Source of the DNA: a virus
DNA: 24,234 bases
Strand: one strand, 5' to 3'
Virus genome (UHGV): UHGV-0124819
The notes beneath the pieces were generated by a model that saw only the letters and a list, made by a program, of their open reading frames with translations, did not search any database and was not told where the DNA came from. A program made the translations under genes and the position numbers. The first letter of the stretch is position 1. Each line of letters begins with the position of its first letter. This document shows, piece by piece, positions 155 to 14,729 of the stretch.

Positions 155-1138
155 CTAATTCCTATCAGCAGGTAGAATTGCTGGGTAGAGCTTAGAGCAA
201 TCATTGCCATAGTCAGGGATAAAGTCCCATAGCCCTTTTGGCGTTTGGAAGACCTCAGGGCTTAAGCCAATCAGCATATAAACATGAACTAACAGCTCGC
301 GCAATCCAGTGACCATTTGCTTTATTTGTTTTTCATCAGAGAAAGAAGTGGTGAAGGGTTTTTCTTCAATGGAGTCAAAAAGAATAAACTCATGTTTTTC
401 ATATCGATAGTCGATCCCTAATTCTCTGCAAAGTTGGATAATATTGATTTCGAGCATTTGAAGGGAAATCACTTGGATATCATAAGAAGTCTCTTTGTTG
501 TAACAGCTTTTAATAGCTTTGTTGATATTCTTATAATAATCTTGAACTCTACCCATAAATAATGAACTTATTTCTTTGCTATAGCCTTCTTCAATAGAGG
601 ATTTTGTAAAAATATTCATGTAAAGAATATAAGGGTGAGAAATGGAAGGTTCTATATATTTTTTTCCATCATCGTGTTCGGTAAACTCTCTACTAACGAT
701 AAATGAAGGGACAGTTTTAAAAATATCGGCATAACTCTTCTGGTGGGCATAAAATGAATCAGATTTATTTTTTGCTTTTACCAGCTCTATTTGATGCTCT
801 GTCCTTGAAAGCTGCGTCTCTGTTTGAATGGTCCTGTGAATATTCTTAACTATAGCTCCAAGAGGTACTGAACTGGCTAGCAGCATTAGAGGGAATTTAC
901 TGATTTCGTAAAAGCGAGTATAGCCGTGGGCACTTAACACCGGGACCTTGCCCCACCATGCGAAAATCCCAAAATAAAAGAATGATAATACTGGTATTCC
1001 GATTGATAACCAGAATAATTTCTGTTTTATAAGGTTTTGTTCATTTAATAAATACCACTTGTATTTATATGTTAAATACAATATGTATATTAACATTACA
1101 ACATAGAACATAATGCCAATTGATGAATAAAGGGTCAT
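155..1138 (-). CDS. Hypothetical membrane-anchored protein: N-terminal 2-3 transmembrane helices plus a ~230-aa soluble domain; AT-rich cargo (moron) gene between int and att
   Basis: 327-aa ORF. Hydrophobic N-terminal segments IGIMFYVVMLIYILYLTY and LFWLSIGIPVLSFFYFGIFAWW, with a possible third, FPLMLLASSVPLGAIV. Start ATG at 1136-1138 overlaps the int stop codon in an ATGA arrangement. Composition is strongly AT-biased and Lys/Ile/Tyr/Asn-rich, unlike the neighbouring int. No recognisable catalytic motif. Confidence 0.65.
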   Translation of the reverse strand: MTLYSSIGIMFYVVMLIYILYLTYKYKWYLLNEQNLIKQKLFWLSIGIPVLSFFYFGIFAWWGKVPVLSAHGYTRFYEISKFPLMLLASSVPLGAIVKNIHRTIQTETQLSRTEHQIELVKAKNKSDSFYAHQKSYADIFKTVPSFIVSREFTEHDDGKKYIEPSISHPYILYMNIFTKSSIEEGYSKEISSLFMGRVQDYYKNINKAIKSCYNKETSYDIQVISLQMLEINIIQLCRELGIDYRYEKHEFILFDSIEEKPFTTSFSDEKQIKQMVTGLRELLVHVYMLIGLSPEVFQTPKGLWDFIPDYGNDCSKLYPAILPADRN

Positions 1139-3191: not shown

Positions 3192-3701
3192 ATGTTTGAT
3201 TATAAGATTTCCAAACACCCGCATTTTGATGAAGCCTGTAGAGCTTTTGCACTTCGTCACAATATGGCGAAGCTGGCAGAACGTGCAGGAATGAATGTCC
3301 AGACTTTGCGAAACAAACTCAACCCAGATCAACCGCATCAGCTAAATGCGCCAGAAATCTGGCTGCTTACCGATCTGACTGAAGATTCAACGCTGATAGA
3401 TGGTTTTCTGGCACAGATTCACTGCCTGCCATGTGTACCGATTAATGAGGTAGCAAAAGAGAAACTGCCGCATTACGTCATGAGTGCAACCGCAGAGATC
3501 GGGCGTGTTGCTGCAGGTGCGGTATCTGGAGATGTAAAAACCAGTGCAGGTCGTCGTGATGCTATCAGCAGCATTAACTCTGTAACACGACTGATGGCGC
3601 TGGCTGCTGTTTCATTGCAGGCCCGTTTACAGGCTAACCCTGCGATGGTGAGTGCAGTTGATACCGTGACTGGCCTCGGTGCTTCATTCGGTTTGCTGTG
3701 A
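3192..3701 (+). CDS. cII: CII-like lysogeny establishment regulator (186 CII family)
   Basis: 169 aa, the length I recall for 186 CII. Position directly after apl. SD AAGGGGG. Assignment is by synteny and size, not by a motif. Confidence 0.7.
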   Translation: MFDYKISKHPHFDEACRAFALRHNMAKLAERAGMNVQTLRNKLNPDQPHQLNAPEIWLLTDLTEDSTLIDGFLAQIHCLPCVPINEVAKEKLPHYVMSATAEIGRVAAGAVSGDVKTSAGRRDAISSINSVTRLMALAAVSLQARLQANPAMVSAVDTVTGLGASFGLL

Positions 3702-3708
3702 GGTGCTT

Positions 3709-4005
3709 ATGCTGAAGAAAGAACCATCATTTGCATCGCTGCTGGTAAAACAAAGCCCGGCAATGCACTACGGTCACGGCTGGATCATGGGTGAGGATGG
3801 GAAACGCTGGCATCCATGTCATTCACAAGATGAATTGCTGTCTGAATTGACCACGAGGAAACGGAGAAAGTCAAAATGTATGCAGCGGAAAGTGAAGTGG
3901 TTTATCAGTTTCGTTACAGAGGGGAGAGTTATTCAGTACCTGAAGATGATTTGCTCTGTTGTTATCCGTCGTTGTCGGGCGATGGCAGTTACTTTTTCAC
4001 GCTAA
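3709..4005 (+). CDS. Hypothetical small early protein (fil/dhr-region ORF); the 3' portion overlaps the next ORF in another frame
   Basis: ATG at 3709 preceded by GAGGTG. The first ~55 codons look protein-like; the remainder overlaps 3876-4100 and looks compositionally odd (Arg/Lys/Cys-rich). Confidence 0.3.
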   Translation: MLKKEPSFASLLVKQSPAMHYGHGWIMGEDGKRWHPCHSQDELLSELTTRKRRKSKCMQRKVKWFISFVTEGRVIQYLKMICSVVIRRCRAMAVTFSR

Positions 4006-4100
4006 GGGATGGGACGTTTTTACGGGGAGAGCAGGTTAAAGAGACGATACGAAAAAATGTATCTCCTCTTGAACGTTACCGTAAGAACAAAGAACGATAG
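3876..4100 (+). CDS. Hypothetical small early protein
   Basis: 74-aa ORF with a strong SD (GGAGAAAG) 7 nt upstream of the ATG. Confidence 0.45.
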   Translation: MYAAESEVVYQFRYRGESYSVPEDDLLCCYPSLSGDGSYFFTLRDGTFLRGEQVKETIRKNVSPLERYRKNKER

Positions 4101-4122
4101 TTGCGTTTTGGGAATATGAATT

Positions 4123-4464
4123 ATGGCAATTAATGGCGCTGCAGCAACTGTTCCATTAAGCCCCGGTGAACGCCTGAATGGACTTAATCATATTGCGGAG
4201 TTAAGGGCGAAAGTTTTTGGCCTGAATATTGAGTCAGAGCTTGAGCGGTTTATTAAAGATATGCGTGATCCACGGGATATCAATAGCGAACAAAATAAAC
4301 GGGCACTGGCTGCCATATTCTTTATGGCAAAAATTCCAGCTGAACGTCACAGCATCAGCATTAATGAGCTGACCACTGACGAAAAGCGGGAGTTGATTAA
4401 AGCAATGAATCATTTTCGTGCAGTAGTGAGCTTATTCCCCAGACGACTAACCATGCCGAATTAA
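4123..4464 (+). CDS. Hypothetical early-region protein
   Basis: 113-aa ORF, co-oriented within the early operon, typical host-like codon usage. Confidence 0.6.
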   Translation: MAINGAAATVPLSPGERLNGLNHIAELRAKVFGLNIESELERFIKDMRDPRDINSEQNKRALAAIFFMAKIPAERHSISINELTTDEKRELIKAMNHFRAVVSLFPRRLTMPN

Positions 4465-4531
4465 CAAACTAATGAACTTCATGGCGTAAACACGCCGGGT
4501 ATCCCTTTACCTAAATTCAGGAGAATTGATT

Positions 4532-4765
4532 ATGCGTAATATTGAAACCCTCACGACTAAAACCGGACCGGATGATGCAGGGCTTAATATTTTACTGACA
4601 GAGGCTCGTCTGGAAGAACGCCGGGCAAGAGCTGAAGCAATGGCAGCTCGCCTTGATAGCCTTGCGTGCCATATCACATCCCGCCAGCTAAACCACGTTG
4701 AAGCGGCTGAACTGCTGCGTGTGGCAGCTGAAGCAATCCAGAACGAAGCGCAGGAGATCCACTAA
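4532..4765 (+). CDS. Hypothetical early-region protein
   Basis: ATG at 4532 preceded by AGGAG. Stop overlaps the start of the next gene by 1 nt. Confidence 0.55.
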   Translation: MRNIETLTTKTGPDDAGLNILLTEARLEERRARAEAMAARLDSLACHITSRQLNHVEAAELLRVAAEAIQNEAQEIH

Positions 4766-4992
4766 TGGCTGATGCAATGGATCTCGTACAGCAGCGCGTT
4801 GAAGAAGAACGCCAGCGTCATATCCGTACTGCCCGTGCCAAAACGCCGGGCGTGTCCCGCGTGCTTTGCATTGAGTGTGAAGCGCCAATTCCGCCAGCAC
4901 GCCGCCGTGCCATTCCGGGTGTGCAGCTTTGCATTACCTGTCAGGAAATCGCAGGGCTGAAAGGCAAACATTACAACGGAGGTGCTGTATGA
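4765..4992 (+). CDS. TraR/DksA-family C4 zinc-finger protein
   Basis: 75 aa. Cys pairs CIECEAP ... CITCQE form a C4 finger. Common in P2-like early operons. Confidence 0.8.
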   Translation: MADAMDLVQQRVEEERQRHIRTARAKTPGVSRVLCIECEAPIPPARRRAIPGVQLCITCQEIAGLKGKHYNGGAV

Positions 4993-5846
4993 GCACCATC
5001 CTGAAATGGGCGGGAAATAAAACCGCCATTATGTCCGAACTGAAAAAGCATCTTCCTGCTGGCCCGCGACTGGTTGAACCTTTCGCGGGTTCCTGTGCAG
5101 TGATGATGGAGACGGAGTACCCCAGCTATCTTGTTGCGGATATTAATCCTGATTTAATCAACCTCTATAAAAAGGTTGCTGCTGATTGTGAATCATTTAT
5201 ATCTCGCGCCAGAGTTTTATTTGAGATCGCAAACAGGGAGGTAGCTTATTACAACATAAGGCAGGAGTTTAATTACTCAACTGAAATTACTGATTTCATG
5301 AAAGCGGTATATTTCCTGTATCTCAATCGTCACGGTTACCGTGGTTTATGTCGCTATAACAAGAGCGGGCATTTCAACATTCCCTACGGTAATTATAAAA
5401 ATCCGTATTTCCCTGAAAAAGAAATTCGCGCATTTGCAGAAAAAGCCCAGCGAGCAACGTTTATCTGCGCCAGCTTTGATGAAACGCTGGCGATGTTGAA
5501 GGCGGGGGATGTGGTGTATTGCGATCCGCCGTATGACGGTACGTTTTCCGGCTATCACACTGATGGTTTCACTGAAGATGACCAGTATCACCTGGCATCC
5601 GTTCTTGAACATCGGTCATCAGAAGGACATCCGGTCATTGTTTCTAACAGTGACACATCCCTGATCCGTTCGCTGTATCGCAATTTTACTCACCACTATA
5701 TCAAGGTAAAACGCAGCATCGGTGTGGCAGCTGGCGAGGGTAAATCAGCAACAGAAATCATTGCTGTTTCCGGGCCGCGCTGCTGGTTGGGATTTGATTA
5801 TTCGCGTGGCGTGGATAGTTCTGCCGTGTACGGAGTGCGTGCATGA
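4989..5846 (+). CDS. dam: DNA N6-adenine methyltransferase (Dam-like)
   Basis: Start ATG at 4989 overlaps the TraR stop (ATGA). Motifs KWAGNK, SAM-binding EPFAGSCAV, and catalytic DPPY (CDPPYDG). Confidence 0.9.
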
Positions 5847-8257
5847 GCCATGCTGATATGAACAACTGCAGCGGCTTTAACGAGGCCGCCGCAGCATTCT
5901 CATGGAACAGCCCGAAAAAGGCTATTAACCCTTATCTGGACCCGGCGGAAGTTGCGCCGGTTTCTGCGCTTTCAAACCTGATCACTCTGTACGCTGCCGA
6001 TAACGAGCAGGAACAACTGCGCCGCGAGGCACTGAGTGATCAGGTCTGGGAGCGTTATTTCTTTAATGAATCCCGTGATCCTGTCCAACGCGAAATGGAG
6101 CAGGATAAGCTCATTAGCCGGGCAAAGCTGGCGCATGAGCAGCAGCGTTTTAATCCGGACATGGTCATACTGGCGGACGTTAAAGCCCAGCCCTCCCATA
6201 TCAGCAAGCCGCTGATGCAACGTATTGAATACTTCAGCAGCCTGGGCAGGCCAAAGGCTTATTCCCGCTATTTGCGTGAGACGATTAAGCCATGTCTGGA
6301 ACGACTGGAGCATGTACGCGACAGTCAGCTATCCACTTCTTTTCGCTTTATGGCAAGCCATGAAGGGCTGGACGGCCTGCTGATCCTGCCTGAAATGAGT
6401 CAGGATCAGGTGAAACGCCTGTCTACTCTTGTCGCTGCGCATATGAGCATGTGTCTTGATGCCGCTTGTGGTGATTTGTACGCCACCGATGATGTTAAGC
6501 CAGAAGAAATCCGCAAGACATGGGAAAAGGTGGCAGCAGAAACCCTGCGACTGGATGTCATACCGCCTGCGTTTGAGCAACTCCGCCGGAAAAGAAACCG
6601 CCGTAAACCCGTACCCTATGAACTCATTCCGGGTTCGCTGGCGCGTATGTTGTGCGCCGACTGGTGGTATCGGAAATTATGGAAGATGCGTTGCGAATGG
6701 CGGGAAGAGCAGTTGCGTGCTGTTTGCCTGGTCAGCAAAAAAGCATCTCCCTATGTCAGCTATGAAGCCGTGATGCATAAACGTGAGCAGCGCCGTAAGT
6801 CGCTGGAGTTTTTCCGTTCTCATGAACTGGTGAACGAAGACGGCGACACGCTGGATATGGAGGACGTGGTAAACGCCAGTAGTAGCAACCCGGCGCATCG
6901 CCGCAATGAGATGATGGCATGTGTTAAAGGTCTGGAGCTTATCGCGGAAATGCGCGGTGACTGCGCCGTTTTCTACACCATCACCTGTCCGTCACGTTTC
7001 CATTCCACGCTAAATAACGGCAGGCCCAACCCAACCTGGACAAATGCGACGGTAAGACAAAGCAGTGATTATCTGGTCGGCATGTTTGCTGCATTTCGTA
7101 AGGCGATGTACAAAGCCGGATTGCGCTGGTATGGCGTGCGGGTGGCTGAGCCGCATCATGACGGTACAGTTCACTGGCACCTGTTGTGTTTTATGCGCAA
7201 AAAAGATCGCCGCGCCATTACTGCTTTGTTGCGTAAGTTTGCCATCCGTGAAGACCGCGAGGAGCTGGGTAATAACACAGGACCACGCTTTAAGTCTGAG
7301 CTGATAAACCCGCGCAAAGGTACGCCAACAAGCTACATCGCGAAATACATCAGTAAGAACATTGACGGGCGTGGTCTGGCTGGCGAGATCAGCAAGGAAA
7401 CGGGTAAATCCCTGCGTGATAACGCTGAATACGTTAATGCCTGGGCGTCTCTTCATCGTGTTCAGCAATTCCGCTTCTTTGGCATTCCGGGGCGTCAGGC
7501 TTACCGTGAACTGCGATTGCTGGCTGGTCAGGCGGCAAGGCAACAGGGGGACAAAAAAGCAGGTGCGGCGGTACTGGATAACCCACGCCTTGATGCCATC
7601 CTGGCTGCTGCTGATGCTGGTTGTTTTGCCACCTACATCATGAAGCAGGGCGGCGTACTGGTTCCCCGCAAATATCACCTCATCAGAACCGCTTATGAAA
7701 TCAACGAAGAGCCGACCGCCTATGGCGATCACGGCATTCGTATTTATGGCATCTGGTCACCCATTGCAGAGGGCAAGATCTGCACTCATGCAGTGAAGTG
7801 GAAAATGGTTCGTAAGGCCGTTGACGTTCAGGAGGCGGCAGCCGACCAGGGCGCTTGCGCCCCTTGGACTCGTGGCAATAACTGTCCCCTTGCTGAAAAT
7901 TTGAACCAACAGGAGAAAGATAAATCAGCTGATGGGGACCCCAGAACGGACATTACCCGCATGGATGACAAGGTGTTGCACGATTACCTGCACAGTATGA
8001 ACAAAAAGGAGCGCCGGGAATTGGCTGCAAGGTTACGTCTGGTGAAACCGAAACGGCGTAGAGACTACAAACAGCGAATTACAGACCATCAACGACAGCA
8101 GCTCGTCTATGAACTGAAATCCAGAGGATTTGATGGCAGCGAGAAAGAGGTCGATTTACTCCTTCGCGGCGGCAGTATTCCGTCAGGAGCAGGCCTGCGT
8201 ATCTTCTATCGGAACCAGCGTTTGCAGGAAGATGATAAGTGGCGGAACCTGTATTAA
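5843..8257 (+). CDS. A: Rolling-circle replication initiation endonuclease (P2 gpA family)
   Basis: 804 aa. HUH-type motif VHWHLLCF and tandem catalytic tyrosines YIAKYISKN. Start overlaps the dam stop (ATGA). Confidence 0.9.
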
Positions 8258-8410: not shown

Positions 8411-8599
8411 ATGCAGGACTATTTTTTGGAGTCTTTGAAGCTCCAGCGCATTGATTTTTTTCTTAAGCTTGTAGCGGCTAGTGAGTGTAGTGATGAAGAG
8501 AAGGGGCTGGCTCTGCAGTGGGTTTCTGAATTGACTGATGAACTCATGGCAAAAATCAGAAGCCACGAATACAACCGCTCAATGGATGTCATCAACTGA
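8411..8599 (+). CDS. Hypothetical small protein in the position of the 186 tum (SOS-inducible antirepressor) region
   Basis: 62-aa ORF, ATG at 8411 with SD AGGAGG at 8401-8406. Lies directly downstream of the LexA box. Confidence 0.5.
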   Translation: MQDYFLESLKLQRIDFFLKLVAASECSDEEKGLALQWVSELTDELMAKIRSHEYNRSMDVIN

Positions 8600-8609
8600 G
8601 GTGACTTTT

Positions 8610-8843
8610 ATGTGCATTGAAATAATGATCGATAAAGAGCAGAAGATTAGCCAGTCTACCCTGGACGCCCTTGAATCCGAGCTTTACCGCAATCTGCGCC
8701 CCCTGTATCCCAAAACGGTAATCCGTATCCGTAAAGGTAGCTCTAACGGTGTGGAACTGACCGGACTGCAACTGGACGAAGAAAGAAAACAAGTGATGAA
8801 AATTATGCAGAAGGTGTGGGAAGACGACAGCTGGCTGCATTGA
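8610..8843 (+). CDS. DinI-family protein (DNA-damage-inducible protein I-like)
   Basis: 77 aa, MCIEIMIDKEQ...LDALESEL...QKVWEDDSWLH. Aligns by eye over its full length with E. coli DinI (MRIEVTIAK...IDALAGEL...QETWESADDW). SD GAGGTG upstream. Confidence 0.8.
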   Translation: MCIEIMIDKEQKISQSTLDALESELYRNLRPLYPKTVIRIRKGSSNGVELTGLQLDEERKQVMKIMQKVWEDDSWLH

Positions 8844-8897: not shown

Positions 8898-8931
8898 AGG
8901 CGATGTCAATCAGATATCGCCTTGTTTTTTG
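8898..8931 (+). terminator. Intrinsic terminator after the DinI-like gene
   Basis: Stem AGGCGAT / ATCGCCT (8898-8904 / 8916-8922) followed by TGTTTTTTG. Confidence 0.55.
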
Positions 8932-8956
8932 TCAAGAAAAGAATAATAGGCTAAAA

Positions 8957-9634
8957 ATGAAAATTAATAACGTAGCGTTACCAATATCTCTTGCTGTAAT
9001 CCTAACTGGTTGCGTGCCACATGCTTCTAACCGAAATATCACTGCTATTGAAGTGGTGAAGCCTGCTATTGGGCAAAGTGCTACCGCCTACATGGGCGAT
9101 CCCATTATCACATCTGCTACTGGATTTAAAACGGACGTACTAGAACTTGGTGCGGCTAATGGTGCATTGTCTTCTATCGCTGCTGGTACATATTGCAGTG
9201 AGGGGAATGGAATTTACCGCAATTATCATAACCCTCAAGCTGTTGCGTTAAAAAATCTCTATGGGCAAATCGGTAACTATGTTGATTATGTTAGTTACGA
9301 TGCTGCAAAAAATGAGATATCACCGCCAAATGGTACTTCTTATACTGCATCAGAAATTTCTATCAAACGTGTTCCTGATGGGCTGTGTCGAGTTAGTAAC
9401 TCATTGGTTAAGACTATCGAATACAATGGAAATGCAGGCGGTGTAATGAAGTTCACCTATCGTGAATTTGCAAACGATATGGCTCGTGCAGCATTTACAA
9501 CAGATTTTTCTGTAGATTCTAAGGGAAGTGACGTTATCGCTTACAAAGGTGCCAAGTTCAAAGTGAACAAGGCTGATAACTCGTCTATTTCTTATACAAT
9601 TATTTCTGGCTTTGACAAGGCTGTCACGTTCTAG
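8957..9634 (+). CDS. Lipoprotein of unknown function (moron)
   Basis: Signal peptide MKINNVALPISLAVILTGC with lipobox LTGC. 225-aa Gly/Ser/Thr/Asn-rich mature part. AT-biased. Bracketed by terminators at 8898-8931 and 9739-9765. Confidence 0.75.
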   Translation: MKINNVALPISLAVILTGCVPHASNRNITAIEVVKPAIGQSATAYMGDPIITSATGFKTDVLELGAANGALSSIAAGTYCSEGNGIYRNYHNPQAVALKNLYGQIGNYVDYVSYDAAKNEISPPNGTSYTASEISIKRVPDGLCRVSNSLVKTIEYNGNAGGVMKFTYREFANDMARAAFTTDFSVDSKGSDVIAYKGAKFKVNKADNSSISYTIISGFDKAVTF

Positions 9635-9738
9635 GTTTCACGCTTGCTGAGTATGTTACGATTTTGCACATTCTGCATAAACGCGCATGTCTATGCTGCA
9701 TGAGATCGCATGATCGTTTGAGGATCTTTTGTGTTAAG

Positions 9739-9765
9739 GCCCGCCAGTTCTGGCGGGCTTTTGCG
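9739..9765 (+). terminator. Intrinsic terminator
   Basis: Perfect 8-bp stem GCCCGCCA / TGGCGGGC (9739-9746 / 9751-9758), loop GTTC, then TTTTGCG. Confidence 0.7.
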
Positions 9766-9807
9766 TAGATCATGCAGGTGCATGAAAACCACTACATAAA
9801 GCGGGCA

Positions 9808-9826
9808 GGCGTGGCGGGGATACGAG
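9808..9826. other. Candidate cos site (19-nt cohesive-end region)
   Basis: GGCGTGGCGGGGATACGAG begins with GGCGTGGCGGGGA, matching the first 13 nt of the 186-type cohesive end as I recall it (GGCGTGGCGGGGAAAGCAT). GC-rich element in a non-coding gap between the replication and portal gene blocks. Confidence 0.45.
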
Positions 9827-9973
9827 CGCGCGCAAGGTATAGAAACAGTCGTTTGTTTACAAACAGATACTATGATTTTCAATGTTCTTTCAAATTGTTG
9901 CTTTAAGATAGCAGGTAGATGTTTGTAGTTGTTGCGTGAACTGATAAGCTTCTACAACTATCGAGGAAAGGAT

Positions 9974-11041
9974 ATGAAGCGGCTAACTGAAGAACAAATT
10001 GAACATTCTTTGATCAGAGCAAGGAAGATTGCGAAGCGGGAGTCAAGAAAGCTTTCTGGTGGAAGACGGATGCTACAGCCCATGCGGGTATTCTCTCGTG
10101 TGAGAATACCCGCGCCTGCGTCATTGGACTTATTTAATACTAAAAATTACAAACTATTTATAGAGTTTATCACTTTAATAAGAGATTACATCAATGATGG
10201 TGAGAAAATTTTAATAGATTTCAGAAATACAAAATCTCTGAAAGCATGTGCAGTAATCGTATTGTATGCACATATTGACTTTTTACAAAGGCAAACAAAA
10301 GATAAAAATATAATTTCTATTACTACGTGCGGTTCATCCAGGGCAAATAACTGGTTTAAAATATGTGGTATTTGGGGGATTACAGGGTTTCAGCGTATAG
10401 CTGCAGATAAGCTTAATTCAATGGAAATTGTTTCCGCTGTTGCAGGCAAAACTAGAGATGATCATGAAAGTGCCGAAGCAAGACAAAAAATTAAAAATAT
10501 TCTACGTTATATAAAAGATACCATTTATGAAGGTAAGATTTCCGCTTCGGATGGTGTGAAATTATATGCAGCCTTAACTGAATCTATTAGCAATGTTGGT
10601 CTACATGCGTATTCAAATGAAGAACAGTTCTCTGAATTTATTGAGGACATTGGTAAAAGATGGTGGATATTGGCACACAAAGTCGAAGAACAACTATTTT
10701 TGATGGTGTATGATATGGGAGAAGGTATCCCAGTTACATTGGTTAAAAAAGACTTTTTCACATTTATCGCTCAGATATTTAATCCTAAGACGGATTCTGA
10801 TAAAATATTCGCGGCTGTACAGTATGGTGAGACAAGAATGAATAGTCAGAAGCATGGTAAAGGATTACCTGATATGAAAAGGTATGTTGTAGATAACCCT
10901 GAGGGGCAGTTACATATTTTTAGTGGAATGGGACGATATTCTTATGATGCTGAAAATAATGTTGAAGATAAATTTGATCTGCCATACTCCATAGGTGGAA
11001 CCCTTATTCAATGGAATGTAAGTTTGAGAGGTGCTGAATGA
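9974..11041 (+). CDS. Cassette gene 1: protein with a C-terminal GHKL-superfamily ATPase/kinase domain (RsbW/SpoIIAB-like) and an N-terminal domain of unknown function
   Basis: 355 aa from ATG 9974 (SD GAGGAAAGG). N-box-like LTESISNVGLHAY (10580-10612; compare SpoIIAB SEAVTNAIIHGY), G1-box-like YDMGEGIP (10709-10732), G2-like HGKGLPD (10853-10873). AT-rich. Confidence 0.6.
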   Translation: MKRLTEEQIEHSLIRARKIAKRESRKLSGGRRMLQPMRVFSRVRIPAPASLDLFNTKNYKLFIEFITLIRDYINDGEKILIDFRNTKSLKACAVIVLYAHIDFLQRQTKDKNIISITTCGSSRANNWFKICGIWGITGFQRIAADKLNSMEIVSAVAGKTRDDHESAEARQKIKNILRYIKDTIYEGKISASDGVKLYAALTESISNVGLHAYSNEEQFSEFIEDIGKRWWILAHKVEEQLFLMVYDMGEGIPVTLVKKDFFTFIAQIFNPKTDSDKIFAAVQYGETRMNSQKHGKGLPDMKRYVVDNPEGQLHIFSGMGRYSYDAENNVEDKFDLPYSIGGTLIQWNVSLRGAE

Positions 11042-11358
11042 AAATCAAAGAGATACATGTTGCTGAAGATTTTTCAGATGTTCCCTATGGCCGCTATGAT
11101 GAGGATGGTCCTGATAATGGACAACGTTTCCGTGAAAAGTATCTTTTGAAAGCCATCCAAGATTATGATGAGGTGCACGTGTACCTTGATGGTGCTATGG
11201 GTTATGGTTCTTCATTCTTGGAAGAGGCGTTTGGTGGACTTTATAGAACAAATAATATAGATAAAGCTATAATTAGGAAAAAATTAAAAATATTTACTGA
11301 TTTGGATTTCCTCAAGGATAGTATATGGGGATATATTTCTGATGCTAAAAAGGAGTGA
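11038..11358 (+). CDS. Cassette gene 2: small acidic protein, possibly STAS-like (anti-sigma-factor-antagonist-like, DUF4325-type)
   Basis: 106 aa. ATG overlaps the gene 1 stop (ATGA at 11038-11041). Segment VHVYLDGAMGYGSSFLEEAFGG (around 11200-11235) resembles the SpoIIAA/RsbV pattern h-h-D-x-S/G-x-h-x-h-DSSGLG. Confidence 0.5.
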   Translation: MKIKEIHVAEDFSDVPYGRYDEDGPDNGQRFREKYLLKAIQDYDEVHVYLDGAMGYGSSFLEEAFGGLYRTNNIDKAIIRKKLKIFTDLDFLKDSIWGYISDAKKE

Positions 11359-11363
11359 TGTTC

Positions 11364-11852
11364 ATGGATGAACTTCCGGTTTATCTGCGGTTATTACAAT
11401 ACCTTGCTAGTTCAGGTGTGATTGCAATTCTAACAGCCTTGATTGGTTGGGTTTTTGTTTATAGAAACTCCCGTGCGTTGCAAAAGAGGAGTGAAACATG
11501 GTCAATTGTAAAAAATGTTTCAGATAATTTAAAGGAAATTGAATCTGCATCAAGAAAGTTTTGGATACCGGGAGATTCAAAAGAAATTGATGCAATGTCA
11601 TTTCAAAATGAGATAACAGCACTTCTTGCGGAGACCGAGCGGTGGTTGAATCATCTAAAACAACGCATTAATATCGAAGGTGACTATAAACCTTTGATTG
11701 CTGATTTATTCAAAGATGCTACATCTAATATTGAAAAAGCACAGGAGTATGATAAAAGTCAAAGGACAAGAATTAGTGTATTAGTGTCAAAAAGGGCGAA
11801 AATAATTAAATCTCTAATTGATGAGTCTTATCAGAAAAAATTCTTAAAGTGA
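11364..11852 (+). CDS. Cassette gene 3: single-pass membrane protein with a C-terminal coiled-coil-like region
   Basis: Likely ATG at 11364, 9 nt after SD AAGGAG and 5 nt after the gene 2 stop. TM helix VIAILTALIGWVFVY, then a charged heptad-like Lys/Glu-rich region. AT-rich. Confidence 0.6.
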   Translation: MDELPVYLRLLQYLASSGVIAILTALIGWVFVYRNSRALQKRSETWSIVKNVSDNLKEIESASRKFWIPGDSKEIDAMSFQNEITALLAETERWLNHLKQRINIEGDYKPLIADLFKDATSNIEKAQEYDKSQRTRISVLVSKRAKIIKSLIDESYQKKFLK

Positions 11853-11862
11853 TAATTTGTTA

Positions 11863-11891
11863 CGGCACGGTAGTGCCGTAGTTTTTTTTCT
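11863..11891 (+). terminator. Intrinsic terminator closing the three-gene cassette
   Basis: Stem ACGGCAC / GTGCCGT (11863-11869 / 11874-11880), loop GGTA, then a T8 run. Confidence 0.75.
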
Positions 11892-11937: not shown

Positions 11938-12963
11938 TCAGAATGAATATATTTCAAATTCTATTATTTTTTTATCAAGCCATTCATTTATCTCTCCTAA
12001 GCGTTTTTGTAATGGTATAAGTTCGTTTCGTACAAACACTTTACTTGCTTTCTCCACATCCCCAAACCCCCCAACATTATTAGGCATAATCCCCATCATC
12101 TGAGGCGGCACGCGGTGCGCTGCCATCATGTCATCCCGACTCACGTTCTTGATATTAAGAAATTCATCCTTCGCCGCGACTTCTGACAATGGGATGATCT
12201 GAAGCCCGTCCTTTTTGCCGTTAGGCGAGTACATAAACAGGTTGCGGAAGTTGCCTGGACCTTTGGCGCTTTTCATCGCGTTGCGGAGGTTGTTCACATC
12301 CTCCTGGTTTTGTGCGGCATCGGTCATGTACATGATAAAGCCCGCATGGCTGCCGTTAATGTAATACTTGCGACGGAACAGCGTGGCGGACTCGTTGAGC
12401 AGGGCTGACGGAATGGCAGAAAGATAACCGGGCAGGCCGTAGATCTCCTGGTTGATGTCCGGTTCCATCAGATGAAAGATGCTGCCTTTCGTGAACTGAT
12501 ATGGCTGCGTGGTCATACCGTATTGCACAAACCAGTAGGTATCCAGGTCTAACCCGCGTCGGGTGTATTTTGCCAGGGCAGGTTCAAGGGCGATAACTTC
12601 ACCGAAGCGGTTCGTGCGTTTCTCCAGGTAGGCGTTACCAAATACCAGATAGTCCTGCACAAAACGCGAAAAAGCCTGCTGGCTGAGCAGCGGGTGAGGG
12701 ATGTAGGTGCTGGTCAGAATGTTGCACTTTACTGCAATCGGGGAACTATGATGCACGGCAGCGCGGAAGGTGCGCGCCAGTCCGTCAAAGCTGACGGGCG
12801 GCTCATACCAGCGGTCCATCTGTACGCATTCCACATAATCCAGCAGTTCTCGGCGGTCCAGAACAGGAACGGGATCGCCGAAGCTGAATGCTTCGGCTGT
12901 AGTTTGACTTTTAAGCTGGATCTGTTTCGTCGCCGCAGTGCGGTTCTTCTTACTCTTTCCCAT
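11938..12963 (-). CDS. Q: Portal protein (P2 gpQ family)
   Basis: 341 aa, the size and position of P2 gpQ. Convergent with the cassette and immediately followed (upstream on the minus strand) by the terminase gene. Assigned by synteny and length. Confidence 0.9.
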   Translation of the reverse strand: MGKSKKNRTAATKQIQLKSQTTAEAFSFGDPVPVLDRRELLDYVECVQMDRWYEPPVSFDGLARTFRAAVHHSSPIAVKCNILTSTYIPHPLLSQQAFSRFVQDYLVFGNAYLEKRTNRFGEVIALEPALAKYTRRGLDLDTYWFVQYGMTTQPYQFTKGSIFHLMEPDINQEIYGLPGYLSAIPSALLNESATLFRRKYYINGSHAGFIMYMTDAAQNQEDVNNLRNAMKSAKGPGNFRNLFMYSPNGKKDGLQIIPLSEVAAKDEFLNIKNVSRDDMMAAHRVPPQMMGIMPNNVGGFGDVEKASKVFVRNELIPLQKRLGEINEWLDKKIIEFEIYSF

Positions 12964-14729
12964 CAAAAAATCTCCACAATATTGCTGGTATTGGCGGATT
13001 CGCCCTGCAGCGGTTCGTTAAACAGTGCGTGCATCGTTGCCCAGGCCAGATCGGCGTGGCTGGCTTCTTCGCTGCGGCTGGCTTCATAGGTCGGGCGGTT
13101 GCCACTGGCGGTGGTGGCGCGACGGATTGCCATGAATGACTGCGCAATGTCGGTGTGCCCGGCGTCAAACTCAAGACGGCGGTGGCTGATAATGTCGTAG
13201 GCCTTGAGTACCAGGGCGTTTTTAACGTTGGGGTTGTAGACAAACTCCCGGACGGCAGGAAAAAACGCTTTCACGTTCTCGTAAACCCCGTGACCAACGC
13301 CGGTTGAGTCGATGCCGATATAGGTCACGTTGTACCGTTCGGTCAGTTTTTTGATGGCGTCAGCCTGGGCGCGAAAGTCCATTCCGCGCCACTGGTGACG
13401 CTCAAGAATGCGGAACTTACCGCCCGGCACGGCTGGCGGTGCCACCACCACGCATCCGGCGCTGTCGCCGTTTTGCGTACCTTTTGCCGGGTCATAACCG
13501 ATCCACACTTCGCGCCAGCCAAACGGGCGCAGAGCCAGTGCATGAAAGTCGGTCCAGACTTCCCAGCTGTCCACCATGCACGCCTGCAGCTCGCTGAGCG
13601 GGAACACGGACGCGAGATCGTCCACGAACTCACACATCAGCAGGTTCTGGTATTCGTCCGGGCTGTATTCCATGCGTAACTGGTCGAGGTCGAACAGGTT
13701 ACATCCGCCGCGCACCGCATCTTCTACGGTGACTATCTGGCGGTATTGCCCGTCTGCGCACAGCAGGCCGGGGGCCAGATTGCTGTGGGACAGGTCGATG
13801 TCCACCTTATCGGCTTTGTTGCGCCCACGGTTGAACAGCGCACCGGACCAGAACGGATAAGCACTGTGTGTCAGACTGGATGGCGTGGAAAAATAGGTCT
13901 GTCGCCATTTCTTGTGAATAGCCATACCGGAAGCCACTTTGCGCAGCTCCTGGAATTTCGGTATCCAGAAATATTCATCCAGATACAGGTTGCCGTGATA
14001 ACTCTGGGCCGTGCGGGCATTGGTGCCGAGGAAGTAAAGCGTGGCCCCGTTGGGAAGCACCATCGGATCACCTTTCAGCTCCACCTCCACTTCTTTGGCG
14101 AAGTCGATGATGTACTGCTTAAAGACGTGGGCCTGTGCCTTGCTGGCGGAAAGGAAAATCTGGTTACGTCCGGTCAGCAGAGCGTCAATCAGGGCTTCAC
14201 GGGCAAAATAGAAGGTCGCGCCGATCTGGCGTGACTTCAACAGGTTGCGGATGCGGTTGGTTTTTCCGGCTTCCCACCAGTGGCGCTGGTAGTTGAACAT
14301 GGAGGAATGGAAGATTTCCTCCAGCTTTTCAATCTGTTCATCGGTGAAAACGTTCTTTTCCGGCTGACGACGCGGGCCTTTGTTGCGGTTGGCGACGTTA
14401 GGGTTTAAGTCGGCTTCGTTGCCGCCATTGTTAAACTTGCCGATCCGCGCGTGGCGCTCAGACTGGCGCGCCAGCAGGTCAATCTCTTTGAAATCTTTCC
14501 CTTCTTTGTGCTCCTTCATAATGAGCTGGCAGTAGCGGGCGGCGGTGGTGAGCTGCATCTGATCCAGCGGCCCATAGTCACCCCACTTGTCGCGTTTTTT
14601 CCAGCTGTGAACGGTTGCAACTTTCTCGCCCAGCATTTCAGCAATGCGGGCTACGCGGTATCCCTGAAAGTACAGCAGCATGGCCTGCCGACGGGGATCG
14701 AGATCTGCGGGTGTCAGTGTGGTGTTCAT
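12963..14729 (-). CDS. P: Terminase large (ATPase) subunit (P2 gpP family)
   Basis: 588 aa, the size and position of P2 gpP, in the Q-P operon divergent from O. Confidence 0.95.
   Translation of the reverse strand: MNTTLTPADLDPRRQAMLLYFQGYRVARIAEMLGEKVATVHSWKKRDKWGDYGPLDQMQLTTAARYCQLIMKEHKEGKDFKEIDLLARQSERHARIGKFNNGGNEADLNPNVANRNKGPRRQPEKNVFTDEQIEKLEEIFHSSMFNYQRHWWEAGKTNRIRNLLKSRQIGATFYFAREALIDALLTGRNQIFLSASKAQAHVFKQYIIDFAKEVEVELKGDPMVLPNGATLYFLGTNARTAQSYHGNLYLDEYFWIPKFQELRKVASGMAIHKKWRQTYFSTPSSLTHSAYPFWSGALFNRGRNKADKVDIDLSHSNLAPGLLCADGQYRQIVTVEDAVRGGCNLFDLDQLRMEYSPDEYQNLLMCEFVDDLASVFPLSELQACMVDSWEVWTDFHALALRPFGWREVWIGYDPAKGTQNGDSAGCVVVAPPAVPGGKFRILERHQWRGMDFRAQADAIKKLTERYNVTYIGIDSTGVGHGVYENVKAFFPAVREFVYNPNVKNALVLKAYDIISHRRLEFDAGHTDIAQSFMAIRRATTASGNRPTYEASRSEEASHADLAWATMHALFNEPLQGESANTSNIVEIF

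What the first reader, a model, noticed from the sequence alone, without database searches (positions are those of the whole stretch)
9974..11041. Cassette gene 1 has anti-sigma-factor-type GHKL kinase motifs fused to an unknown N-terminal domain
Residues ~200-300 show the ordered motif triad of the GHKL fold: LTESISNVGLHAY (N box, strikingly like SpoIIAB SEAVTNAIIHGY), YDMGEGIP (G1, D-x-G-x-G) and HGKGLPD (G2). The ~190-aa N-terminal half (including ILIDFRNTKSLKACAVIVLYAHIDFL) is much larger than in RsbW-type kinases, which consist of the GHKL domain alone. That suggests an added sensor or partner-binding domain.
Basis: partly seen in the sequence, partly recalled or inferred. Interest (0 to 1): 0.7.

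Follow-up and report, generated by a model that had tools for sequence, protein, structure and literature searches.

The report
Kinase, STAS partner and membrane protein operon
Gene 1 is a real anti-sigma-type GHKL kinase whose "unknown" N-terminal half is a STAS domain; with a small STAS protein and a single-pass membrane protein it forms a widespread, untested three-gene operon in a prophage defence hotspot, related to the 2026 VapKSC anti-phage system.

Summary
The ORF at 9974-11041 carries the N, G1, G2 and G3 boxes of the GHKL fold. They are invariant in homologues down to 24% identity, and the predicted fold matches SpoIIAB and RsbW best.

The "unknown" N-terminal half is now identified. 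It is a conserved, strongly basic helix followed by a STAS domain that lacks a conserved phospho-acceptor Ser/Thr.

Gene 1 aligns across both domains with VapK, the STAS-GHKL kinase of the VapKSC toxin-antitoxin defence system (Chambers et al., EMBO J 2026). Gene 2 belongs to Pfam DUF4325, as VapS does, and its invariant Ser58 aligns with the VapS phospho-acceptor. Gene 3 is not a VapC nuclease. It is a roughly 160-aa protein with one N-terminal membrane helix.

The three-gene order held in all 45 surveyed loci across several phyla, and in three further sampled loci (in one the third gene looks truncated). The cassette sits in the P2 gpA-gpQ defence hotspot. It is listed, with no test found, in Rousset et al. 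2022.

Best reading: an infection-activated kinase phosphorylates the STAS "antitoxin" and releases a membrane effector, giving abortive infection. Nothing beyond the sequence and fold has been tested. I rate it a new variant of a known kind.

The parts
9974..11041 (+). Gene 1 (355 aa): STAS-GHKL serine-kinase-like protein, a distant homologue of VapK
   Evidence: ORF and Shine-Dalgarno sequence. RefSeq WP_042005405. hhalign of the family alignment against VapK gives probability 93.9%, E 1.6e-7, 254 columns, with gene 1 residues 57-347 aligned to VapK 22-284. AF2 model pLDDT 81.
9974..10081 (+). Gene 1 residues 1-36: conserved, strongly basic N-terminal helix. Candidate nucleic-acid-binding or membrane-binding arm.
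   Evidence: Helix 6-27 in the model. Net charge +6 to +16 in 22 of 24 homologues, although the sequence itself varies. The function is inferred.
10082..10447 (+). Gene 1 residues about 37-158: STAS domain with no conserved phospho-acceptor Ser/Thr
10541..11038 (+). Gene 1 residues about 190-355: GHKL (Bergerat-fold) ATP-binding kinase domain. N box at 10574-10612, G1 at 10709-10732, G2 at 10853-10873, G3 at 10994-11008.
11038..11358 (+). Gene 2 (106 aa): DUF4325 STAS-like protein, in the same Pfam family as VapS. Its invariant Ser58 (codon 11209-11211) is the predicted phospho-acceptor. The start overlaps the gene 1 stop (ATGA).
11364..11852 (+). Gene 3 (162 aa; the ORF is open from the GTG at 11355): single-pass membrane protein with a cytoplasmic helical domain. 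Proposed effector.
   Evidence: AAGGAG Shine-Dalgarno sequence at 11350-11355 and the RefSeq start. Hydrophobic helix at residues about 17-36, followed by basic residues. A homologous or analogous third gene is present in all 45 surveyed loci, with conserved YW and TGGxFE...R motifs. No Pfam or PADLOC family matches.
11859..11882 (+). Intrinsic terminator that closes the three-gene operon, 7 nt after the gene 3 stop
   Evidence: 10-bp stem with 5 G-C pairs, followed by TTTTTTTT.

Best explanation
Genes 1-3 form one operon: a prophage-carried, toxin-antitoxin-like abortive-infection or superinfection-exclusion system built on the kinase-STAS module recently described for VapKSC.

Proposed steps:

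1. In the lysogen, gene 2 (a STAS protein of the DUF4325 family) binds the cytoplasmic domain of gene 3, a small single-pass inner-membrane protein, and keeps it inactive.
2. Gene 1 is a STAS-GHKL serine kinase that stays off until it senses an infection cue. The likely cue is a nucleic acid bound by the basic N-terminal helix and the STAS-GHKL groove.
3. The active kinase phosphorylates gene 2 on the invariant Ser58.
4. Phosphorylated gene 2 lets go of gene 3.
5. Free gene 3 damages or depolarises the membrane, which stops the cell and the infecting phage.

Shown here: the folds, the motifs, the homology to VapK and VapS, the operon conservation and the hotspot location.

Inferred by analogy: phosphorylation of Ser58, binding between gene 2 and gene 3, gene 3 toxicity, the trigger, and any anti-phage effect.
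For: **Kinase.**
- GHKL motifs are invariant.
- The fold matches SpoIIAB and RsbW best, and the N-terminal domain is STAS.
- Homology to VapK spans both domains (hhalign probability 93.9%, E 1.6e-7; BLASTP 22% identity, E 7e-4).

**Substrate.**
- Gene 2 is in DUF4325, the same Pfam family as VapS.
- Its model has pLDDT 95 and a STAS fold with RsbV as top hit.
- Ser58 is invariant. It lies at the N-terminus of the helix that follows the second beta-strand of the model, which I take from background knowledge to be the STAS phospho-site position, and it aligns with the VapS phospho-acceptor and with the GSSF motif of STAS antagonist 3t6o.

**Operon.**
- Genes 1 and 2 overlap by ATGA, gene 3 has its own Shine-Dalgarno sequence, and a terminator follows directly.
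- The order kinase, DUF4325 protein, then a 150-200-aa protein with an N-terminal hydrophobic helix is found in 45 of 45 loci. These come from Gamma- and Alphaproteobacteria, Verrucomicrobiota, Planctomycetota and Bacteroidota.
- Three further family members were taken from the profile search, without the peptide-pattern bias of the main survey. All three show the same gene order, though in one of them gene 3 looks truncated.

**Defence context.**
- The cassette lies between gpA/DinI and portal gpQ, the P2 hotspot defined by Rousset et al. 2022.
- It is listed in their supplementary file 6. The part of supplementary file 2 read here lists a homologous "HATPase_c | DUF4325" system (entry 69, count 9, "1 TM in protein 3"); from its place in the paper I take this to be the catalogue of P4-satellite hotspot systems.
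- It is carried whole (at least 80% of the query covered) by only 20 of 5426 complete E. coli genomes.
- Marinobacter phage AS1 has the operon directly downstream of its CI repressor, the position rexAB occupies in lambda.

**Precedent.** In VapKSC, the phosphomimetic VapS S48E no longer binds VapC or counteracts its toxicity. The system gives about 2 logs of protection against phage Bas42, and a VapS S48A mutant loses that protection (PMC13373217).
Against: - No experiment exists for this family.
- None of the three proteins matches a PADLOC model.
- Gene 3 has no recognisable toxin or pore domain. Its only hint is a weak holin PHROG match (E 0.006).
- The aromatic residue that stacks on ssDNA in VapK and CapK (F54, W68) aligns with a variable position in gene 1 (S88). 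The trigger may therefore differ.
- Neighbours of the system in non-phage genomes are mixed: some restriction-modification and candidate defence genes, but also housekeeping genes.
- I found no consensus sigma-70 promoter upstream of gene 1.
- I could not run a complex prediction, so the gene 1-gene 2 and gene 2-gene 3 contacts are untested.
- The one apparent gene 2-gene 3 fusion (L039) is topologically awkward and is probably a stop-codon loss or a MAG error.
Confidence: 0.5

Rival explanations
1. Membrane-sensor model. Gene 3 is the sensor or anchor, not the effector. It detects envelope perturbation such as phage DNA injection or holin action, and it recruits or releases the STAS protein. 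The kinase-STAS pair then acts as a partner switch whose output is the kinase itself, or an unlinked cellular target.
For: - Gene 3 has no recognisable toxin domain.
- Its cytoplasmic domain carries well-conserved short motifs (YW, TGGxFE...R) that look more like a binding or regulatory surface than a pore.
Against: - The gene order kinase, STAS protein, third gene matches VapKSC, where the third gene is the toxin.
- No other output gene is conserved next to the operon.
- SpoIIAB-type kinases are narrow-specificity enzymes (background knowledge).
Confidence: 0.2
2. Housekeeping-type regulatory module with no role in defence. In this reading the operon is a general partner-switching circuit that tunes a membrane process, and it is merely carried as prophage cargo.
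For: - The family is very large and occurs in many chromosomal contexts, including next to housekeeping genes.
- PADLOC has no model for it.
- Chambers et al. themselves note that the line between stress-response and immune pathways is fuzzy.
Against: - The distribution is sporadic: 20 of 5426 E. coli genomes.
- It sits in a phage locus known to hold exclusion and defence genes (the P2 gpA-gpQ hotspot), and a homologous system appears in the Rousset et al. hotspot catalogue that I take to be the P4 one.
- In phage AS1 it lies next to the immunity region.
- There is no phosphatase for resetting the switch, so the circuit looks one-way.
Confidence: 0.15
3. Gene 1 is an ATP-dependent binder or ATPase that sequesters partners, and does not transfer phosphate. 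This would resemble the anti-sigma function of SpoIIAB without phosphotransfer. Ser58 of gene 2 would then be conserved for structural reasons.
For: - GHKL proteins include many non-kinase ATPases, such as topoisomerases, Hsp90, MutL and rIIA-like proteins. Several appear among the structural hits.
- The HATPase_c score is below threshold.
Against: - The closest GHKL structures are the serine kinases SpoIIAB and RsbW.
- The homologue CapK was shown to phosphorylate the equivalent serine of CapS. A VapS S48A mutant loses protection, and S48E mimics activation.
- The invariant serine sits exactly at the STAS phospho-site.
Confidence: 0.1

Closest known systems
VapKSC (VapK kinase, VapS STAS antitoxin, VapC PIN toxin); Chambers et al., EMBO J 2026, PMC13373217
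   Same: - It is a three-gene operon in the same order: kinase, STAS protein, third gene.
- Gene 1 is homologous to VapK across both the STAS and GHKL domains.
- Gene 2 and VapS are both Pfam DUF4325.
- The invariant Ser58 aligns with VapS Ser48.
- Neither operon encodes a phosphatase.
- Both associate with mobile or defence loci.
   Different: - The third gene is a single-pass membrane protein of about 160 aa, not a VapC PIN nuclease.
- Gene 1 has an extra N-terminal basic helix of about 36 residues.
- The position aligned with the VapK ssDNA-stacking residue F54 is not conserved (S88).
- Gene 2 lacks the long C-terminal inhibitory helix of VapS.
- Sequence identity is only about 22%.
- There are no experimental data for this family.
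CapK-CapS, a DNA-damage-activated kinase and its STAS-wHTH repressor (same paper)
   Same: - A STAS-GHKL kinase is followed immediately by a STAS-domain substrate with a conserved serine.
- It is associated with immune loci.
   Different: - CapK has an N-terminal HTH domain.
- CapS carries a wHTH DNA-binding domain and regulates a downstream operon.
- Gene 2 here is a bare STAS domain, and no downstream immune operon follows: a terminator and then the portal gene come next.
SpoIIAB-SpoIIAA and RsbW-RsbV anti-sigma partner-switching modules
   Same: - The N-box sequence is similar.
- The serine sits at the N-terminus of the same STAS helix.
   Different: - No sigma factor or PP2C phosphatase is present.
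- The kinase has a fused STAS domain and is 355 aa long, against roughly 140-160 aa.
- The third partner is a membrane protein.
Lambda RexAB and other prophage abortive-infection systems with membrane effectors
   Same: - It is prophage-encoded and lysogen-expressed cargo.
- In phage AS1 the operon lies directly downstream of cI, as rexAB does in lambda.
- A small membrane protein is the likely executioner.
   Different: - There is no sequence or fold relationship.
- The sensing module is a kinase-STAS pair.
Entry 69, 'HATPase_c | DUF4325', in supplementary file 2 of Rousset et al. 2022 (Cell Host Microbe), which I take to be the P4-satellite hotspot catalogue
   Same: It is a homologous three-gene system with the same domain order, and protein 3 is noted as having 1 TM. 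The exact cassette of this window (WP_042005405, WP_119743262 and a DUF4325 protein) is listed in supplementary file 6, which I take to be the P2-hotspot table.
   Different: - It is a catalogue entry only.
- I found no sign that it was cloned or tested.
- It has no name and no mechanism.

Membership tests
GHKL (Bergerat-fold) ATPase/kinase superfamily | N box (E-x3-N) with the Mg-binding Asn | tested here: met
   E203 and N207 are invariant in 24 sequences reaching 24% identity.
GHKL (Bergerat-fold) ATPase/kinase superfamily | G1 (DxGxG) and G2 (GxG) ATP-lid boxes | tested here: met
   D247, G249, G295 and G297 are invariant, as are G342 and T343 of G3. G251 is conserved in at least 90% of sequences.
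GHKL (Bergerat-fold) ATPase/kinase superfamily | Bergerat alpha/beta sandwich fold | tested here: met
   [not shown]
GHKL (Bergerat-fold) ATPase/kinase superfamily | Pfam HATPase_c match above the gathering score | tested here: not met
   19 bits against a cutoff of 26.4, E 0.002. VapK is also below the cutoff at 23.4 bits, so this reflects divergence of the subfamily and does not argue against membership.
GHKL (Bergerat-fold) ATPase/kinase superfamily | ATP binding and hydrolysis or phosphotransfer | not testable with these tools
   Needs purified protein.
SpoIIAB/RsbW anti-sigma-factor serine kinases | Adjacent STAS-domain substrate with a conserved Ser at the N-terminus of the STAS helix | tested here: met
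   Gene 2 is DUF4325 with a STAS fold. Ser58 is invariant and sits at the helix start.
SpoIIAB/RsbW anti-sigma-factor serine kinases | A cognate sigma factor that the kinase binds and inhibits | tested here: not met
   No sigma factor gene is in the operon or conserved beside it. The third gene is a membrane protein.
SpoIIAB/RsbW anti-sigma-factor serine kinases | Stand-alone GHKL domain with a PP2C phosphatase partner | tested here: not met
   The protein is 355 aa with a fused STAS domain. No phosphatase is in the cassette.
CapK/VapK STAS-GHKL kinases (Chambers et al. 2026) | STAS domain fused N-terminal to the GHKL kinase domain | tested here: met
   [not shown]
CapK/VapK STAS-GHKL kinases (Chambers et al. 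2026) | Sequence homology to VapK over both domains | tested here: met
   hhalign probability 93.9%, E 1.6e-7, 254 columns. The VapK sequence was transcribed from the authors' AF3 file. Homology is distant, at 22% identity.
CapK/VapK STAS-GHKL kinases (Chambers et al. 2026) | Immediately followed by a STAS protein with a conserved Ser/Thr | tested here: met
   45 of 45 loci. S58 is invariant.
CapK/VapK STAS-GHKL kinases (Chambers et al. 2026) | Conserved aromatic residue for ssDNA stacking (CapK W68, VapK F54) | tested here: inconclusive
   F54 aligns with S88, a variable column. Alignment accuracy at 22% identity is limited.
CapK/VapK STAS-GHKL kinases (Chambers et al. 2026) | Activation by ssDNA and phosphorylation of the STAS serine | not testable with these tools
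   Biochemistry is required.
VapKSC operon | The third gene encodes a VapC-like PIN nuclease | tested here: not met
   Gene 3 has no PIN match. It is a roughly 160-aa single-pass membrane protein. This is therefore a sister architecture and not a VapKSC member.
Anti-phage defence system (generic) | Located in an established defence hotspot or on mobile elements | tested here: met
   It lies in the gpA-gpQ interval of a P2/Fels-2-like prophage. It is listed in the Rousset et al. hotspot tables. In phage AS1 it lies next to the immunity region.
Anti-phage defence system (generic) | Match to a known or candidate defence model (PADLOC-DB 2.0) | tested here: not met
   None of the three proteins has a hit.
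Anti-phage defence system (generic) | Measured protection against phage | not testable with these tools
   I found no published test.

The most novel reading that the evidence does not exclude
This is the founding example of a widespread, unnamed abortive-infection system. Its family holds more than 1300 clusters at 50% identity and spans at least five phyla. In it, a VapK-like STAS-GHKL kinase phosphorylates a DUF4325 STAS antitoxin to release a new kind of small membrane effector. The kinase may sense a cue other than ssDNA, through its conserved basic N-terminal arm. If so, the kinase-STAS pair would be a general, exchangeable sensor module of bacterial immunity.
Probability: 0.4. Interest if true: 0.7.

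Novelty: new variant of a known kind. Interest (0 to 1): 0.6.

Why it matters
A third output, a membrane protein, in a much larger and phylogenetically broader family would show that the module is a general plug-in sensor for immune effectors.

It would also give a function to Pfam DUF4325 and explain a recurrent cargo of P2 and P4 hotspots. And it would add a defence system that PADLOC-DB 2.0 does not detect.

The system is small, about 1.9 kb and three genes, and comes from E. coli. The predictions are cheap to test: gene 3 toxicity, rescue by gene 2, S58A/E and N207A mutants, and a phage panel.

Tried and rejected
- **PADLOC, NCBIfam and Rfam.** No informative hits for the cassette.
- **PHROGs.** Only unknown-function families: phrog_3364 for gene 1, the C-terminus of phrog_5816 for gene 2, and a weak holin hit for gene 3.
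- **PDB sequence searches.** Only sub-significant hits, although they pointed the right way: RsbW N box, SpoIIAA and VapS.
- **Apparent gene 2-gene 3 fusion in L039.** I considered it as Rosetta-stone evidence and rejected it. A single membrane helix would put the two domains on opposite sides of the membrane, and the junction looks like a lost stop codon in one MAG.
- **Neighbour scan of 41 loci against Pfam and PADLOC.** The picture was mixed, there was no baseline, and my ORF calls were crude. I do not count it as evidence.
- **Promoter scan.** No consensus sigma-70 promoter upstream of gene 1, and the overall site count was at chance level.
- **Literature.** Searches by RefSeq accession, by "STAS-like" plus defence terms, and by SpoIIAB/RsbW plus anti-phage terms found nothing beyond the CapK/VapK paper.
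- **New systems in the 2026 P2/P4 paper.** None of Crouga, Bandua, Aernus, Toga or Reve matches this architecture, and no supplements were held for that paper.
- **Structure libraries.** The afdb50 library was unavailable. The BFVD search gave only generic GHKL hits.
- **Gene 3 protein search.** It reached only close relatives of at least 47% identity. Gene 3 evolves faster than genes 1 and 2.
- **Classical sigma-factor partner switch.** Rejected, because there is no sigma factor and no phosphatase.
- **CapKS-type transcriptional control.** Rejected, because gene 2 has no DNA-binding domain and no downstream operon follows.
Full report
**Context**

The window is a P2/186/Fels-2-type prophage of E. 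coli. It is 99.8% identical to strain NCTC11121 across the cassette. Its genes, in order:

| Coordinates | Strand | Gene |
|---|---|---|
| 1135-2163 | - | integrase |
| 2165-2797 | - | CI repressor |
| 3192-3701 | + | CII-like regulator |
| 4929-5846 | + | Dam methylase |
| 5843-8257 | + | replication endonuclease gpA |
| 8538-8843 | + | DinI-like protein |
| 11938-12966 | - | portal gpQ |
| 12963-14729 | - | terminase |

The finding lies in a low-GC island (0.31-0.37 against about 0.55) between DinI and the portal gene. Rousset et al. 2022 identified this gpA-gpQ interval as the P2 defence hotspot. It holds old and tin in P2 itself (PMC9122126).

**Checking the observation**

The ORF at 9974-11041 encodes 355 aa. 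It has a good ribosome-binding site, matches the RefSeq gene call, and starts where its homologues start.

A fourth box, G3 (GGTLI), is at 341-345.

I aligned gene 1 with 23 homologues reaching 24% identity. The motif residues are invariant: E203, N207, H211, D247, G249, G295, G297, G342 and T343; G251 is conserved in at least 90% of sequences. A profile search of 1.84 billion cluster representatives found 3954 clusters at E<=1e-3 and 1366 at E<=1e-30. The top hits align over the full length, so the two-domain protein is a large family.

Its only weak point is a sub-threshold Pfam HATPase_c score, which the characterised relative VapK shares.

**The N-terminal half**

The position equivalent to the STAS phospho-serine is Ala, Cys or Gly in most homologues. 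This internal STAS domain is therefore not a conserved phospho-acceptor.

A helix of about 36 residues precedes it. Its sequence varies but it is always strongly basic, with net charge +6 to +16 in 22 of 24 homologues.

**Genes 2 and 3**

*Gene 2* (11038-11358) overlaps the gene 1 stop codon by ATGA.
- It is a Pfam DUF4325 "STAS-like" protein (E 3.5e-12).
- Its model is very confident (pLDDT 95.3). Its best structural match is RsbV, from the RsbV-RsbW complex, followed by other STAS domains.
- Ser58, in GYGSSFLEEAFGG, is invariant in 34 and in 40 homologues. It sits at the N-terminus of the helix that follows the second beta-strand of the model, which I take from background knowledge to be the STAS phospho-site position.

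*Gene 3* (11364-11852; the ORF is open from 11355) has its own Shine-Dalgarno sequence. It has one N-terminal hydrophobic helix followed by basic residues, which predicts a cytoplasmic C-terminal domain. It has no family assignment.

An intrinsic terminator follows at 11859-11882.

**Conservation of the operon**

A scan of one genome per species returned 41 loci from Gamma- and Alphaproteobacteria, Verrucomicrobiota, Planctomycetota and Bacteroidota. With three further loci and the window, the survey covers 45 loci.
- The kinase gene is followed immediately by a DUF4325 gene in 45 of 45 loci.
- A 120-220-aa ORF follows that (fused to gene 2 in L039). jackhmmer recognises it as a gene 3 homologue in 33 loci.
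- In 42 of 45 loci this ORF has a clearly hydrophobic segment. Conserved YW and TGGxFE...R motifs lie downstream of the helix.

That scan used a peptide pattern specific to this subfamily, so I also sampled three members from the unbiased profile search. All three show the same order, although in one of them gene 3 looks truncated.

The three genes therefore form a conserved functional unit, not an accidental cassette.

**Comparison with known systems**

A full-text search found one directly relevant paper: Chambers et al., EMBO J 2026 (PMC13373217).
- CapK (HTH-STAS-GHKL) is activated by ssDNA and phosphorylates a conserved serine of CapS (STAS-wHTH).
- VapKSC is a three-gene toxin-antitoxin-like defence system. 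VapK (STAS-GHKL) is proposed to phosphorylate VapS Ser48. This releases the VapC PIN toxin and gives about 2 logs of protection against phage Bas42.

I transcribed VapK residues 1-286 from the authors' AlphaFold 3 file. The gene 1 family alignment matches it across both domains: hhalign probability 93.9%, E 1.6e-7, 254 columns. BLASTP gives 22% identity at E 7e-4.

The gene 2 profile's best PDB hit is VapS itself (9z7o_A). The hit is weak (E 0.21), but Ser58 aligns with chain residue 66. That is VapS Ser48 if the 134-residue chain carries an 18-residue tag on the 116-residue protein (the offset is inferred). The aligned VapS fragment is a clear DUF4325 member (E 2.4e-14).

Genes 1 and 2 are therefore homologues of VapK and VapS.

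The differences:
- The third gene is a membrane protein, not a PIN nuclease.
- Gene 1 has the extra basic helix.
- The VapK ssDNA-stacking residue F54 aligns with a variable position, S88.
- Gene 2 lacks the C-terminal inhibitory helix of VapS.

This is also not a classical SpoIIAB/RsbW module, because it has no sigma factor and no phosphatase.

**Evidence for a defence role**

- The cassette occupies the P2 hotspot.
- Supplementary file 6 of Rousset et al., which I take to be their P2-hotspot table, lists exactly this cassette (WP_042005405, WP_119743262 and a DUF4325 protein). The part of supplementary file 2 read here lists a homologous "HATPase_c | DUF4325" system (entry 69, count 9, protein 3 noted as 1 TM); from its place in the paper I take this to be the P4-satellite catalogue. 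I found no sign that either was tested.
- Only 20 of 5426 complete E. coli genomes carry the cassette whole (at least 80% of the query covered).
- Marinobacter phage AS1 carries the operon directly downstream of its CI repressor gene, divergent from cro. That is the position of rexAB in lambda.

Against this:
- PADLOC-DB 2.0 has no model for any of the three proteins.
- The newly named P2/P4 systems of a 2026 survey do not match this architecture.
- Neighbourhoods in other phyla are mixed.

**Most likely mechanism (confidence about 0.5 for the whole chain)**

1. Gene 2 holds the membrane protein gene 3 inactive.
2. An infection cue switches on the kinase. The cue is probably a nucleic acid, bound by the basic arm and the STAS-GHKL groove.
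3. The kinase phosphorylates Ser58.
4. Gene 2 releases gene 3, which compromises the membrane and aborts the infection.

Shown here: folds, motifs, homology, operon conservation and hotspot location. Inferred by analogy with VapKSC: every biochemical step.

The rivals are listed separately. In brief: gene 3 acts as sensor or anchor, the module is a regulator with no defence role, or gene 1 is an ATPase that transfers no phosphate.

**Verdict**

The "unknown" domain is now identified as STAS, and the gene is placed in a conserved three-gene system that is a sister of VapKSC with a different effector. I rate it a new variant of a known kind, with interest 0.6.

Noticed in passing
window 8903-9634 (+); likely start at 8957: A second cargo gene lies between DinI and the cassette. 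It encodes a protein of 243 aa (225 aa from the likely start) with a lipoprotein-type signal peptide (…AVILTGC). It matches phrog_1353 (unknown function, E 4e-105) and has no Pfam or PADLOC hit. It is absent from the otherwise identical locus in E. coli D3, so the hotspot here holds two independent inserts.
   Followed up: partly
window 9700-9836: This non-coding stretch is 98-100% identical to Fels-2, Salmonella phage RE2010 and many Klebsiella P2-like phages. It contains a GC-rich hairpin followed by a short T-run (about 9739-9768), probably the terminator of the upstream module. There is no Rfam match. It may mark the left recombination boundary of the hotspot.
   Followed up: partly
window 155-1138 (-): A low-GC (0.35-0.38) ORF of 327 aa lies downstream of the integrase at the prophage end. 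It has hydrophobic N-terminal segments and no Pfam or PADLOC match. It may be another moron or defence candidate.
   Followed up: partly
E. coli NCTC11121 and NCTC9966 (hits H1 and H2): In these two strains the cassette match is split in two pieces by about 777 extra bases annotated as an IS1A transposase. The system is therefore insertionally disrupted in some lysogens.
   Followed up: no
L039 1991-2932: In a Binataceae MAG, genes 2 and 3 read as a single 313-aa ORF. The junction looks like a lost stop codon, and a single membrane helix would separate the two domains across the membrane. It is probably an artefact or a pseudogene and not a true fusion.
   Followed up: partly
L045 (Marinobacter phage AS1, MK088078) 3399-5777: The same three-gene operon (371, 112 and 159 aa) sits directly downstream of the CI-type repressor gene and divergent from cro. 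This is the position rexAB holds in lambda.
   Followed up: yes
L047 3536-4128: In this chromosomal locus the third gene appears truncated. Only a 96-aa ORF with the YW and TGG motifs remains, and the membrane helix is missing. This suggests decay of the putative effector.
   Followed up: no
gene 3 family alignment: The cytoplasmic domain of gene 3 carries two short conserved motifs: YW about 30 residues after the membrane helix, and A-T-G-G-x-F-E…R later on. In the E. coli copy the second motif has diverged to ATSNIE. No known family shares these motifs.
   Followed up: partly
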